Sequence record: OZ035760.1
Length of the DNA stretch: 64,000 bases
From: Tequatrovirus NIC06P2
Strand: one strand, 5' to 3'
How positions within the stretch are numbered: position 1 is the stretch's first letter; each line of letters opens with the position of its first letter. Below the pieces are notes generated by a model that was given only the letters and a program-made list of their open reading frames with translations, searched no databases and was not told the DNA's origin. Positions 54,722-56,709 of this stretch are shown piece after piece. A program made the translations under genes and the position numbers.

Positions 54722-54778
54722 AGCGCTCTCCTCTATAAGATAATTCTATTATACCATACTCATTTTGATATGTAAACC
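54722..54778 (-). promoter_or_regulatory. candidate early promoter (GTTTAC at 54773-54778)
   Basis: Reverse complement GTTTACATATCAAAATGAGTATGGTATAATAG; follows the soc terminator. Confidence 0.5.
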
Positions 54779-54785
54779 ATTTAAA

Positions 54786-54809
54786 TGAAAAAAGGACTCC
54801 CGAAGGAGT
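54786..54809 (-). terminator. intrinsic terminator downstream of soc (same hairpin as at 1203-1226)
   Basis: ggactcc-cgaa-ggagtcc followed by T-run on the minus strand. Confidence 0.75.
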
Positions 54810-54819
54810 CCTTGAATTA

Positions 54820-55056
54820 TTAACCACCTATTTCTGTTGGCGTAAACATTGCAGCATTCTTAGTTTTCCAGTCAGCTGCATCAGAAACTACAGTAGAATA
54901 TGCTGCCTTTTCAGAAGGAAAGGTCTGATAATGAGAATCTGCAATACGATGCTCGTTAGAATAGATTTCAAACGGAACAGAAACTTCCATACCTTTAACT
55001 TCTTTGCCTTCACCTGCTGGATGAGTAAAGGTCTTGATGTTAACGAAACCGCCCAT
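54820..55056 (-). CDS. soc: small outer capsid protein Soc (78 aa)
   Basis: Conserved Soc motifs (YVNIKTF..., HYQTFPSEKAAYSTV) and late promoter upstream. Confidence 0.9.
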   Translation of the reverse strand: MGGFVNIKTFTHPAGEGKEVKGMEVSVPFEIYSNEHRIADSHYQTFPSEKAAYSTVVSDAADWKTKNAAMFTPTEIGG

Positions 55057-55087: not shown

Positions 55088-55095
55088 TATTTATA
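55088..55095 (-). promoter_or_regulatory. late promoter TATAAATA for soc
   Basis: Plus-strand TATTTATA is TATAAATA on the minus strand, about 32 nt upstream of the soc ATG. Confidence 0.7.
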
Positions 55096-55942
55096 AACCA
55101 TTTTCAAATCTCTTTATCATGTTTATATAATTTTCGTCAGGATAACCTAGGCTAACTGCTAACTTTCTAAAATTGACATATTTAGGTTTGTTGTTATTAA
55201 TCCATAATTCTCTAAGCTCTTTTTCATAATTCCATTTAAGTTGATTTCTGCGTGCAATTTTGCTTAAAGTTTTTCCTTTAGCTTTTAAAGCTTTTTCAGA
55301 TGACTGTTTTAATTTTTGAATATTTAAAACTTCTTCTATAGATAAATTATTTTCCTTTGAATATCTTATGCAAAAATCTTTTACTACGGCTATTAGGCAA
55401 TTTTTGTGAGTACCTAAAATTTCTGGATTATTTTCTTCAACTAAAATTCCCCAATATCTTCGATAGCGAGGCATATCCCTTGAAATCCAGTCATTATACC
55501 AAAAATCAAAGTTGGAATACATGAAAGATTTTCTTTTGCGAAGAGTATCTTGGTTTATCCATTGCTCACGTTTATCAGCCCATAACTTAATAGTAAAGTC
55601 TTTCTCTAAGTCAGAAAGCTTCTTAAATTGCGAGCTATTTACTGAGGTCATTCTCTGGAATGCATTCAGCAATCCAAATCTTCCAGTTGAACATAAGAGA
55701 TAGTGAACATATATGTGTTGATATATTGGGAGATATACTCTATTCCAAGGATATGTTTTAAAATCACTGTACTCAGGAAATGCGCATTTAGGAAGTATAT
55801 GATGGGCTTCTGTTTTAGATTTAATGTGAGTGTTTAACTTATACTTATCTATAATTTTTAAATACTCATCTAAAAGTTCCCATTGCGGGAACTTTTCTTT
55901 AAGAGCAGATTTGAAATTAATATCCATTATCTTGACGTTCAA
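55091..55942 (-). CDS. putative free-standing HNH homing endonuclease (283 aa)
   Basis: HNH-like core (TEAHHILPK...N...H) near the N-terminus, basic C-terminal half; occupies the soc-56 spacer and overlaps the 3' end of gene 56. Confidence 0.5.
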   Translation of the reverse strand: MNVKIMDINFKSALKEKFPQWELLDEYLKIIDKYKLNTHIKSKTEAHHILPKCAFPEYSDFKTYPWNRVYLPIYQHIYVHYLLCSTGRFGLLNAFQRMTSVNSSQFKKLSDLEKDFTIKLWADKREQWINQDTLRKRKSFMYSNFDFWYNDWISRDMPRYRRYWGILVEENNPEILGTHKNCLIAVVKDFCIRYSKENNLSIEEVLNIQKLKQSSEKALKAKGKTLSKIARRNQLKWNYEKELRELWINNNKPKYVNFRKLAVSLGYPDENYINMIKRFENGL

Positions 55943-56435
55943 AATTATGTTTGTTCTTCAGATAATAAAGTTTAAAGATTTCTTCTGCTGTAAGACCAAG
56001 ACCTTGGAACATGTTCAGAACAAAATGAAGAATATCAATCATTTCGAATTTAATTTCTAACTGATCCTGTGGAGACAAATCAGTAATCAAAGTTTCACGG
56101 CGTTCACCATGCTGCGACTTCCAAGGTTTCCATACAGCAGATGCATCTTTTTCGCCATTGCTCATACCGCCAAGAGAAGTTAGAAGTTCGCGGAATTCAT
56201 CATCAATATAATCTTTCTGATTACGCAGCCAATCAACAACTTCACCTGCGGTAGCCAAATCATCAGGATGACGGTTATATTCAGGTTTATCTTTAGCTAA
56301 ACGAATCTGTAAAGATTTCTGCATATCAAGCATTACCTGCAGCGGGTCTTTTTCATCACCGAGAATATCCCAATATTCATTTTGAGCTTTATCAGCGCCT
56401 TCGATCAGTTGACTACATTCGTTGAAATGTGGCAT
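55917..56435 (-). CDS. 56: dCTPase/dUTPase gp56 (172 aa)
   Basis: Matches T4 gp56 size and sequence (MazG-like NTP pyrophosphatase). Confidence 0.9.
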   Translation of the reverse strand: MPHFNECSQLIEGADKAQNEYWDILGDEKDPLQVMLDMQKSLQIRLAKDKPEYNRHPDDLATAGEVVDWLRNQKDYIDDEFRELLTSLGGMSNGEKDASAVWKPWKSQHGERRETLITDLSPQDQLEIKFEMIDILHFVLNMFQGLGLTAEEIFKLYYLKNKHNFERQDNGY

Positions 56436-56508
56436 GTTATTTTTCCTTTCAATTCATGGGTTAGTAGATTAATTATACAATAAATATATAAAGCAATAAG
56501 GAGGACAT

Positions 56509-56709
56509 ATGGTACAAAAATTAATGGCACTTGTTAATGCCATAAAAGGTAATAAGAAACGTATAGCTTTTACTATTTCTGCTATGGTAGGAATTTTACT
56601 CTGGAACTTTATTCTATCACCTGTTGCAATTGCACATGGTATTAATATTCCAGTAGTTACTCTTGATACATTTGTAGATTTAGCATTTGCTTTAGTTGGG
56701 TTGATTTAA
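56509..56709 (+). CDS. small membrane protein on the plus strand (66 aa)
   Basis: Strong AAGGAGG Shine-Dalgarno 7 nt upstream of the ATG; two hydrophobic segments; convergent with gene 61, stops overlap. Confidence 0.45.
   Translation: MVQKLMALVNAIKGNKKRIAFTISAMVGILLWNFILSPVAIAHGINIPVVTLDTFVDLAFALVGLI

What the first reader, a model, noticed from the sequence alone, without database searches (positions are those of the whole stretch)
55091..55942. Free-standing HNH endonuclease candidate between soc and gene 56, overlapping the end of gene 56
A 283-aa ORF with an HNH-like core (EAHHILPK...N...H) fills the soc-56 spacer. Its stop abuts the soc late promoter and its start overlaps the gene 56 3' end by about 26 nt. 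This spacer is a known insertion hotspot for homing endonuclease genes in T-even phages; from memory T4 has the GIY-YIG segF here, whereas this ORF looks like a different, HNH-type enzyme.
Basis: partly seen in the sequence, partly recalled or inferred. Interest (0 to 1): 0.5.

Follow-up and report, generated by a model that had tools for sequence, protein, structure and literature searches.

The report
Mob-type HNH homing endonuclease gene
The ORF between phage genes 56 and soc is a real, intact selfish "homing endonuclease" gene of the T4 Mob (HNH) family. It fills, to the nucleotide, the slot that the unrelated endonuclease gene segF fills in T4. This is an ordinary kind of element, but a tidy example of different selfish genes taking turns at one site.

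Summary
The ORF is real. Its true start is almost certainly the ATG at 55927, giving 278 aa and an 11-nt overlap with gene 56, not the TTG at 55942. Its TAA stop lies inside soc's late-promoter box TATAAATA.

Membership rests on:
- PHROG families ('homing endonuclease', 6e-33; 'HNH endonuclease', 4e-10);
- profile-profile matches to T4 MobD (99.6%) and MobE (98.2%);
- an invariant HH…N…H…H motif on a predicted β-β-α unit.

The gene is under purifying selection (dN/dS 0.05–0.16). It occurs in about 30 of roughly 700 T4-like phage records, always at this site. It is far more similar between phages of different genera than the flanking gene 56 is (for example 97.6% against 76.7%), which is the signature of homing.

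It has no promoter of its own and carries a terminator-like hairpin near its 5' end, as segF does. The last 40 nt of gene 56 travel with it and are identical to T4's. Its C-terminal ~55-aa module also occurs in MobD and SegF.

Verdict: a new, uncharacterised member of a known kind, already annotated as an HNH or homing endonuclease in GenBank. Moderate interest.

The parts
55091..55927 (-). Mob-like HNH homing endonuclease gene (278 aa plus stop); the mechanical ORF extends to a TTG at 55942
55532..55927 (-). N-terminal nuclease domain (residues 1-132). Predicted strand 39-43, strand 63-67 and helix 68-81 form a beta-beta-alpha unit.
   Evidence: AF2 models, pLDDT 96 for the domain; alignments A1 and A2
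55703..55804 (-). HNH core: H42-H43 (55804..55799), N62 (55744..55742), H71 (55717..55715), H75 (55705..55703), all invariant in 36 relatives
   Evidence: aligned to the HH..N..H..H of T4 MobE and MobD
55094..55261 (-). C-terminal ~55-aa module (residues 223-278: W..ELW..NKPK..FRK.A...GYPD..Y..MI..F). It is the presumed DNA-binding module, occurs in 1-3 tandem copies in relatives, and is also present in T4 MobD and at the C-terminus of SegF.
55872..55896 (-). Terminator-like RNA hairpin in codons 11-19: AAAAGUUCCC-GCAAU-GGGAACUUUU. It is invariant in all 8 Mob-like-carrying loci.
   Evidence: annotated as a terminator in fPS-2; analogous to the known terminators inside segF and mobE (PMC2988022)
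55925..55949 (-). Small predicted hairpin that pairs the start AUG with an upstream CAU. The sequence is shared with T4 segF. There is no Shine-Dalgarno sequence.
55917..55956 (-). HEG-linked 3' tail of gene 56 (encodes ...KHNFERQDNGY*) containing the ORF's ATG. It is identical to T4 and differs at 12 of 40 nt from the consensus of endonuclease-free phages.
55917..56435 (-). Gene 56 (dCTPase/dUTPase). The body is G4498-like (93%); the last 40 nt are T4-like.
55088..55095 (-). Late promoter box TATAAATA of soc, which also supplies the ORF's stop codon
54820..55056 (-). soc (small outer capsid protein), 78 aa, 47% identical to T4 Soc. The same allele also occurs next to empty sites.
56463..56497 (-). 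MotA-box-like middle promoter (ATTGCTTTA-N11-TATAAT) upstream of gene 56. It is the likely source of transcripts that read into the ORF.
   Evidence: a predicted middle promoter sits at the same place in fPS-2

Best explanation
The ORF is an intact, free-standing homing endonuclease gene of the T4 Mob family, closest to MobD. It combines an N-terminal HNH (His-Me finger) nuclease domain, a lineage-specific helical middle region, and a C-terminal ~55-aa DNA-binding module.

Shown here:
- It is a promoterless cassette lying exactly between the stop codon of gene 56 and soc's late-promoter box.
- Its start ATG is embedded in the last codons of gene 56 (11-nt overlap, no Shine-Dalgarno sequence).
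- Its stop codon is supplied by the TATAAATA box.
- It is under purifying selection.
- It has moved horizontally between T4-like phages of several genera, always into this site, taking the last ~40 nt of gene 56 with it.

Inferred:
- It is transcribed with gene 56 from the upstream middle promoter.
- Read-through is damped by the hairpin in codons 11-19, and translation is weak because it depends on re-initiation after gene 56. This matches what has been described for segF and mobE.
- In a mixed infection the protein nicks or cuts the 56-soc region of a co-infecting phage that lacks it. The conserved 3' end of gene 56 is the most likely target.
- Recombinational repair from the carrier genome then copies the gene and the linked gene 56 tail into the recipient.
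- The carrier's own 12-of-40-nt different tail protects it from its own enzyme.
For: Family:
- PHROG 655, 6e-33, and PHROG 12434, 4e-10.
- hhalign to T4 MobD 99.6%, E=1.7e-24, from the HNH core through the C-terminal module; to MobE 98.2%, E=2.9e-14.
- Y22, H42, H43, L45, P46, N62, H71 and H75 are invariant in 36 relatives.
- AF2 strand 39-43, strand 63-67 and helix 68-81 at pLDDT above 95.
- Relatives carry NUMOD3, NUMOD1 and I-HmuI-NUMOD modules.
- MobA-E are placed in HNH group 1 of the His-Me finger superfamily (PMC5714182).
- MobE's HNH motif is needed for nicking and for high-frequency inheritance (PMC2790892).

Functional gene: dN/dS 0.04-0.16.

Mobility:
- About 30 records at >=80% aa identity, among 659-777 records with this region.
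- DNA identity of the ORF against gene 56, relative to the window: PhiZZ23 98.8/74.0, SmallBear (Klebsiella phage) 97.6/76.7, KM16 (Moonvirus) 91.8/79.5, DK-13 (Gaprivervirus) 85.3/71.6.
- dS of the ORF is 0.05 against 1.0 for gene 56, window versus PhiZZ23.
- ORF GC is 30.0% against 37.6% for gene 56.

Precise slot: the empty site reads ...GGATATTAA|GTTATAAATACACC; the window reads ...GGATATTAA[814 nt]TTATAAATACACC.

Linked tail:
- All Mob-like-carrying loci encode ...KHNFERQDNGY.
- Identity to the window begins about 70 nt before the gene 56 stop, whatever the allele of the gene 56 body.
- The tail is conserved in endonuclease-free phages (0.86-0.92 majority-base fraction) and differs from the carrier's at 12 of 40 nt.

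Expression:
- There is no promoter of its own, and a MotA-like promoter lies upstream of gene 56.
- The fold of the 111-nt 5' region containing the hairpin has z=-3.55, and 0 of 200 shuffles fold as well.
- The review describes the same arrangement for segF (PMC2988022).
Against: - No direct hit to any Pfam or NCBIfam HNH model, even at E<=10.
- No PDB sequence hit with the single protein or with the profile.
- No nuclease, nicking or homing experiment exists for this protein or for its closest named relative MobD, which the review lists as 'ND'.
- The target site is inferred only. The review says free-standing endonucleases usually cut hundreds of base pairs from their own gene. The tight boundaries of the shared tract may therefore reflect where cross-genus homology is available, not where the cut is.
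- The tail differences could serve expression (they create the ATG and the hairpin) rather than self-protection.
Confidence: 0.8

Rival explanations
1. The gene is a passenger. Its protein no longer promotes its own spread, and it is carried between genomes by neighbouring active endonucleases that cut in or near gene 56. This is 'trans homing', as shown for the defunct I-TevIII carried by MobE.
For: In fPS-2, G4498, L020 and L031, gene 56 is also flanked upstream by a second Mob-like endonuclease gene of 651 nt. The C-terminal module of that gene is 47-51% identical to this ORF's. The gene 56 body is visibly exchanged between otherwise near-identical phages (PhiZZ23 against the window). Precedent: PMC2790892.
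Against: The window, Pu-Krd-SF4, PhiZZ23, SmallBear and KM16 carry the ORF without the upstream endonuclease gene. The catalytic residues are invariant and dN/dS is about 0.1 over the whole length, which is not expected of a defunct passenger. The unit shared across genera is the ORF plus 40-70 nt, not a larger block that includes another endonuclease gene.
Confidence: 0.08
2. The protein is a domesticated DNA-binding protein, for example a regulator of soc or gene 56 expression or of the nearby replication origin. It would keep an HNH-like scaffold but not work as a nuclease.
For: No HNH model or HNH structure is matched directly. The C-terminal module resembles small HTH-type DNA-binding domains. 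The ORF abuts the soc late promoter. I-TevI is known to double as a repressor (PMC2988022).
Against: A sporadic distribution (about 4% of relatives) and recent cross-genus transfer are not what a host-beneficial regulator would show. All HNH motif residues shared with the experimentally tested MobE are kept. Phages do well with the site empty or filled by unrelated genes.
Confidence: 0.05
3. The biochemistry is the same (a site-specific nuclease), but the gene is kept mainly because it helps the phage exclude competitors' gene 56 alleles in mixed infections (marker exclusion, or interference competition), not because of purely selfish homing.
For: SegF at this very site causes exclusion of T2 gene 56 (PMC2330249; PMC2988022). 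Strong purifying selection has persisted at dS up to 0.8, which is long for a purely selfish element. A recent paper reports a phage endonuclease that aids competition between viruses (PMC11620839; title and abstract only).
Against: Nothing in the sequence distinguishes this from selfish homing. Only about 4% of relatives carry it.
Confidence: 0.07

Closest known systems
T4 MobD (free-standing HNH-family endonuclease gene between nrdC.11 and mobD.1; activity not determined)
   Same: Same two-part architecture end to end: N-terminal HH..N..H..H domain and the same C-terminal W..LW..N.PK..F....GYP..Y..F module (hhalign 99.6%, E=1.7e-24, 226 aligned columns). Similar size (259 against 278 aa). 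Free-standing, in the same orientation as its neighbours.
   Different: Only about 25% identity. A different insertion site. The middle region (about residues 133-222) is not shared. MobD has its own promoter within the upstream gene according to the review, whereas this ORF has none.
T4 MobE (HNH; nicks T2 nrdB; shown experimentally to be mobile)
   Same: Homologous HNH domain (hhalign 98.2%, E=2.9e-14). [quoted passage not shown] A terminator inside the 5' end of the coding region. Overlaps or abuts the upstream gene (PMC2790892 and PMC2988022).
   Different: MobE is 141 aa and lacks the C-terminal module found here. It lies between nrdA and nrdB. The loop between HH and N is 4-5 residues shorter, which probably explains why MobE reaches the Pfam HNH cut-off (21.5 bits) and this ORF does not.
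T4 SegF (GIY-YIG; formerly gene 69; cuts T2 gene 56 and causes its exclusion)
   Same: Identical genomic slot, to the nucleotide. The start ATG (GTG in AnYang) lies in the penultimate codons of gene 56 with an 11-nt overlap, and the 3' end abuts soc's TATAAATA. In four of the five SegF loci where this end was read, the stop codon lies inside that box. Promoterless, with a terminator hairpin about 40-80 nt into the ORF. The C-terminal region contains the same module class (module HMM E=1e-7 to 2e-8 for four orthologues; hhalign 96%). T4's last 69 nt of gene 56 are identical to the window's.
   Different: An unrelated nuclease domain (GIY-YIG against HNH), with no similarity outside the C-terminal module. 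SegF's module is not especially close to this ORF's (rank 15-35 of 45). In the segF carrier G3F7 a T4-like tract covers about 350-400 nt of gene 56, against <=70 nt for this element.
Replacement of one homing endonuclease gene by another at the same locus (SegH and Hef replacing mobC and mobE in T4 relatives; 'HEG interchangeability' in ICP1-like phages)
   Same: Endonuclease genes of different classes occupy the same intergenic position next to an essential gene in related phages (Sandegren et al. 2005, known to me only from its title in reference lists; PMC10448857).
   Different: I found no report of this for the 56-soc site. Here the two occupants also share start-codon position, 3'-end position, and (T4 against the window's clade) an identical 5' flank.

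Membership tests
T4 Mob family of free-standing HNH homing endonucleases | Sequence homology to named Mob proteins | tested here: met
   hhalign of the 36-sequence profile: MobD 99.6%, E=1.7e-24; MobE 98.2%, E=2.9e-14. tblastn hits to annotated mobD, mobE and 'Mob-like' genes. PHROG 655, 6e-33.
T4 Mob family of free-standing HNH homing endonucleases | Conserved HNH catalytic motif (HH ... N ... H/N) | tested here: met
   H42, H43, N62, H71 and H75 are invariant in 36 relatives and align with MobE H27-H28 ... N ... H ... H. Deleting MobE residues 33-62 abolishes nicking (PMC2790892).
T4 Mob family of free-standing HNH homing endonucleases | Free-standing (not in an intron or intein), intergenic, in the same orientation as its neighbours, next to a conserved essential gene | tested here: met
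   It lies between gene 56 and soc on the same strand. A precise empty site exists in relatives.
T4 Mob family of free-standing HNH homing endonucleases | Sporadic distribution and evidence of horizontal spread into a fixed site | tested here: met
   About 30 of roughly 700 records, all at the gene 56 locus. ORF identity is far above flank identity across four genera. dS is about 20 times lower than for gene 56.
T4 Mob family of free-standing HNH homing endonucleases | Site-specific nicking or cleavage, and non-Mendelian inheritance in crosses | not testable with these tools
   This needs phage crosses and cleavage mapping. No paper on this gene was found.
HNH / His-Me finger superfamily | Match to a curated HNH profile (Pfam PF01844, PF13392 and others) | tested here: not met
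   No Pfam or NCBIfam HNH hit for the ORF or its N-domain at E<=10, and none in any of the 36 relatives at E<=0.01. The link is only transitive: MobE 21.5 bits against a cut-off of 21.4, MobD 18.1 bits.
HNH / His-Me finger superfamily | Beta-beta-alpha metal-finger fold | tested here: inconclusive
GIY-YIG Seg family (SegF) | N-terminal GIY-YIG nuclease domain | tested here: not met
   BLASTP against T4 SegF shows only a weak C-terminal match (E=0.07) and nothing in the N-terminal half.
Homing-endonuclease DNA-binding modules (NUMOD1, NUMOD3, I-HmuI NUMOD-like) | Match to NUMOD profiles | tested here: not met
   None in this ORF. NUMOD3 is found in 9, I-HmuI-NUMOD in 3 and NUMOD1 in 1 of its 35 relatives. 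This ORF instead has one copy of the uncurated ~55-aa module.

The most novel reading that the evidence does not exclude
The 56-soc slot is a site of serial turnover of endonuclease genes, and T4's own segF locus is a recombinant. The 40-nt gene 56 tail and the first 11 nt of T4 segF (codons M-D-I) would derive from a Mob-like-carrying phage of the window's young clade. On this reading, segF displaced this HNH gene (or the reverse) by a crossover exactly at the stop codon of gene 56.

The two enzymes carry the same class of C-terminal DNA-binding module. They could therefore compete for overlapping targets in gene 56. That would make T4 crossed with a Mob-like-carrying phage a natural system for asking which selfish nuclease wins when both alleles of a site are occupied.
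Probability: 0.35. Interest if true: 0.5.

Novelty: new member of a known kind. Interest (0 to 1): 0.35.

Why it matters
In itself this is one more Mob-type homing endonuclease gene, and it is already labelled 'HNH endonuclease' or 'homing endonuclease' in several GenBank and RefSeq records. Its value is comparative.

Gene 56 is the textbook locus of SegF-driven marker exclusion. Here an unrelated nuclease uses the same nucleotide-precise slot, the same borrowed start and stop codons and the same style of expression control. In T4 even the 5' flank is identical.

That gives a concrete, experimentally tractable pair for three questions:
- how selfish nucleases of different classes compete and replace each other;
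- how endonuclease-linked flanks reshape an essential gene;
- what the uncurated ~55-aa C-terminal module shared by MobD, SegF and this protein recognises.

No Mob protein with this module has been characterised biochemically.

Tried and rejected
Searches that gave no HNH evidence:
- Direct profile searches: Pfam and NCBIfam found nothing.
- PDB sequence searches with the protein and with the profile found nothing.

Searches with poor yield:
- The word-indexed protein search found only 3 hits. The exhaustive representative search was needed to find relatives (765 hits).
- IMG/VR scans with SegF found nothing, and with the ORF found one locus.

Ideas rejected or weakened:
- SegF arose in place, by swapping the nuclease domain onto this ORF's C-terminal half. 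SegF's C-terminal module belongs to the same class, but this ORF's module is not its nearest relative (rank 15-35 of 45), and the 3' DNA is not alike.
- The window's soc allele travels with the ORF. The same allele sits next to empty sites (L009-L013, L018).
- The tight 5' and 3' boundaries prove a cleavage site next to the insertion. This is weakened because across genera the only available homology is the 29-nt conserved block and the promoter region, and the review says free-standing endonucleases usually cut at a distance.
- The TTG at 55942 is the start. It is not conserved in KM16.

Papers not held in the library:
- Belle et al. 2002 (PMC155333) and Sandegren et al. 2005 (PMC1275590) could not be read.
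- Where I draw on SegF's exact cleavage position it is from memory. I do not rely on it.

Full report
**What is in the sequence**

On the minus strand the window reads gene 61 (primase), a small opposite-strand ORF, gene 56 (55917..56435), the ORF in question, then soc (54820..55056).

- The mechanical ORF runs from a TTG at 55942 to a TAA at 55091..55093 (283 aa).
- The in-frame ATG at 55927 gives 278 aa (MDINFKS...). It is the start used in every annotated orthologue (837 nt). It is conserved in all of them, whereas the TTG is lost in KM16.
- With the ATG, the overlap with gene 56 is 11 nt (ATGGATATTAA, where TAA is gene 56's stop).
- The ORF's own TAA lies inside TATAAATA (55095..55088). 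That is the only late-promoter box on this strand in the region, and it sits 31 nt upstream of soc's ATG.

**It is a real gene**

Six orthologues give pairwise dN/dS of 0.04-0.16, with up to 79 synonymous against 44 non-synonymous changes. This is comparable to the essential gene 56 next to it.

**What family it belongs to**

Direct searches for HNH fail:
- Pfam and NCBIfam give no meaningful hit, even at E<=10.
- PDB sequence searches find nothing, with the protein or with a profile.

Other evidence places it in the Mob family:
- PHROGs gives family 655 'homing endonuclease' (6e-33, full length) and family 12434 'HNH endonuclease' (4e-10).
- tblastn against phage genomes finds about 280 distant relatives annotated as mobD, mobE, 'Mob-like' or HNH homing endonucleases.
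- An exhaustive HMMER search finds 765 relatives, and the N-terminal and C-terminal parts often match independently.
- In an alignment of 36 relatives, Y22, H42, H43, L45, P46, N62, H71 and H75 are invariant.
- Profile-profile comparison gives 99.6% (E=1.7e-24) to T4 MobD over 226 columns, from the HNH core to the C-terminus. It gives 98.2% (E=2.9e-14) to T4 MobE over the HNH core.
- MobE itself just reaches the Pfam HNH gathering score (21.5 against 21.4 bits). MobD falls just below it at 18.1 bits.
- Published work shows that deleting MobE's HNH motif abolishes nicking of T2 nrdB and lowers its inheritance (PMC2790892).
- MobA-E are classed in group 1 of the His-Me finger superfamily (PMC5714182).

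**Structure**

AlphaFold models are confident for residues 1-130 (pLDDT above 95; 96 for the domain modelled alone) and for residues 223-278.

- They place HH at the end of strand 39-43, N62 just before strand 63-67, and H71 and H75 on helix 68-81. That is a beta-beta-alpha arrangement.

**The C-terminal module**

Residues 223-278 (W..ELW..NKPK..FRK.A...GYPD..Y..MI..F) form a unit found in one to three tandem copies in relatives. The same unit is present at the C-terminus of T4 MobD.

- An HMM of this module, built without SegF, hits four SegF orthologues at E=2e-8 to 2e-7 for a single-sequence search. The best of 1000 shuffles of T4 SegF scores 8.7 bits, against 17.8 observed.
- hhalign gives 96%.
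- This explains why the Edgell review draws segF as a 'hybrid' of the two families.
- SegF's module is not specifically closest to this ORF's (rank 15-35 of 45). I therefore do not claim an in-place domain swap.

**The slot**

I examined 40 loci from IMG/VR plus 16 loci from GenBank phage records. The 56-soc interval is one of the following:
- empty (22-68 nt);
- occupied by T2-type small ORFs;
- occupied by segF (T4, G3F7, Lion_ER11, AnYang, Cronus, L037, L040);
- occupied by this ORF (window, fPS-2, Pu-Krd-SF4, PhiZZ23, SmallBear, KM16, DK-13, vB_EcoM_005).

An empty site reads ...GGATATTAA|GTTATAAATACACC. The window reads ...GGATATTAA[814 nt]TTATAAATACACC.

Both endonuclease genes start at an ATG (GTG in AnYang) inside the penultimate codons of gene 56. 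Both run up to, or into, the late-promoter box.

**Expression signals**

- The ORF has no promoter of its own. A MotA-box-like middle promoter lies upstream of gene 56.
- There is no Shine-Dalgarno sequence.
- Codons 11-19 form a 10-bp hairpin ending in UUUU. It is invariant in all eight carriers and is annotated as a terminator in fPS-2. The fold of the surrounding 111 nt has z=-3.55, and 0 of 200 shuffles fold as well.
- T4 segF has a different hairpin-terminator at a comparable position, about 40 nt further into its coding region.
- The review describes segF and mobE as promoterless cassettes with terminators inside their 5' coding regions, and gives segF's 11-bp overlap as a device for weak re-initiation.

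**Evidence of mobility**

- About 30 phage records carry the ORF at >=80% aa identity. All are at the gene 56 locus, out of 659-777 records with this region. Hosts include Escherichia, Shigella, Yersinia, Citrobacter, Salmonella and Klebsiella.
- Relative to the window, DNA identity of the ORF against gene 56 is 98.8/74.0 (PhiZZ23), 97.6/76.7 (SmallBear), 91.8/79.5 (KM16, Moonvirus) and 85.3/71.6 (DK-13, Gaprivervirus).
- dS for the ORF is about 20 times lower than for gene 56 in the PhiZZ23 comparison.
- The ORF's GC content is 30.0%, against 37.6% for gene 56.
- Sliding-window comparison shows that across genera the shared tract is the ORF plus the last 40-70 nt of gene 56, and nothing beyond the stop codon.

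**The linked tail of gene 56**

The gene 56 body in the window is G4498-like (an empty-site phage). PhiZZ23's is T2-like (95.6%), and the other carriers have their own alleles. All carriers nonetheless switch, inside a 29-nt block conserved in nearly all phages (GAAGAAATCTTTAAACTTTATTATCTGAA), to the same tail encoding KHNFERQDNGY.

- In 39 endonuclease-free loci the tail is itself well conserved (0.86-0.92 majority-base fraction). It differs from the carrier tail at 12 of 40 nt, giving four amino-acid changes, one of which creates the ATG.
- This fits the usual logic: a conserved target in recipients and an altered, protected copy in the carrier. It could equally reflect needs of expression.
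- The cleavage site is not known.

T4 is identical to the window for 69 nt, up to and including gene 56's stop, although the two genes are only 77% identical overall.

- Other segF carriers have different tails, and their SegF starts M-A-I-K rather than T4's M-D-I-K.
- The simplest reading is that the T4-type segF locus and the window's clade exchanged this flank by a crossover at the gene 56 stop. That is turnover of endonuclease genes at one site.
- The general phenomenon has precedents in T4 relatives and ICP1-like phages.
- In the segF carrier G3F7, the T4-like tract instead covers about 350-400 nt of gene 56.

**Verdict**

This is an intact, horizontally mobile, MobD-like HNH homing endonuclease gene sitting in the segF slot.

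It is already annotated generically in databases. I found no paper that characterises it. Nuclease activity, target and homing are inferred by homology and comparative evidence, not shown.

I class it as a new member of a known kind, of moderate interest, mainly as a natural partner to segF for studying competition between selfish nucleases.

Noticed in passing
L031 2401-4236 (Escherichia phage vB_EcoM_005, IMGVR_UViG_2974741249_000001): There is a tandem partial duplication of the gene 56 / Mob-like junction. A short T4-like gene 56 (139 aa) is followed by the first 20 Mob-like codons fused in frame to gene 56 from about codon 39. Then comes a Mob-like ORF whose first 20 codons are out of frame (265 aa from an internal Met). 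The fusion point lies just after the terminator-like hairpin. It looks like a recombination scar, or possibly an assembly error.
   Followed up: partly
L001 1563-2213 (fPS-2), L003 1349-1999 (G4498); the corresponding position in the window is about 56436-56508: Several relatives carry a second Mob-like endonuclease gene (216 aa, NUMOD3-positive) immediately upstream of gene 56, so gene 56 is bracketed by two such genes in fPS-2. Its C-terminal module is 47-51% identical to that of the ORF studied. The window lacks this gene. The window also lacks dam, which T4, T2, L007 and L009 have between 61.x and 56.
   Followed up: partly
window 55957-56435 compared with L049 (PhiZZ23): PhiZZ23 is nearly identical to the window in primase, the Mob-like ORF, soc and the genes downstream. 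Its gene 56 body, however, is T2-like (95.6% to T2, 74% to the window). The body of gene 56 is thus exchanged as a separate cassette between otherwise near-identical phages.
   Followed up: partly
window 56509-56709 (+): A conserved 66-aa ORF lies on the opposite strand between genes 61 and 56 and has a hydrophobic stretch. It is annotated as hypothetical in relatives and as 'putative head morphogenesis protein' in one T2 record. A terminator-like hairpin on the minus strand (56543..56524) overlaps it.
   Followed up: no
L048 334-1083 and 2876-3109 (DK-13); L046 922-1206 (KM16); L047 2597-2831 (SmallBear): The neighbourhood varies in other carriers. DK-13 has another annotated homing endonuclease gene after gene 61 and an extra 77-aa ORF between the Mob-like gene and soc. 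KM16 has an extra 94-aa pyrophosphohydrolase-like ORF upstream of gene 56. In SmallBear soc is annotated as two overlapping CDSs, which may indicate a frameshift.
   Followed up: no
window 54748-54813 (-): Downstream of soc there is a strong terminator hairpin (AAGGACTCC-TTCG-GGAGTCCTT followed by a T run). It is followed by a near-consensus sigma-70-type promoter (TTTACA-17-TATAAT, with an extended TG) for the next gene. This matches the terminator and early promoter annotated in fPS-2.
   Followed up: no
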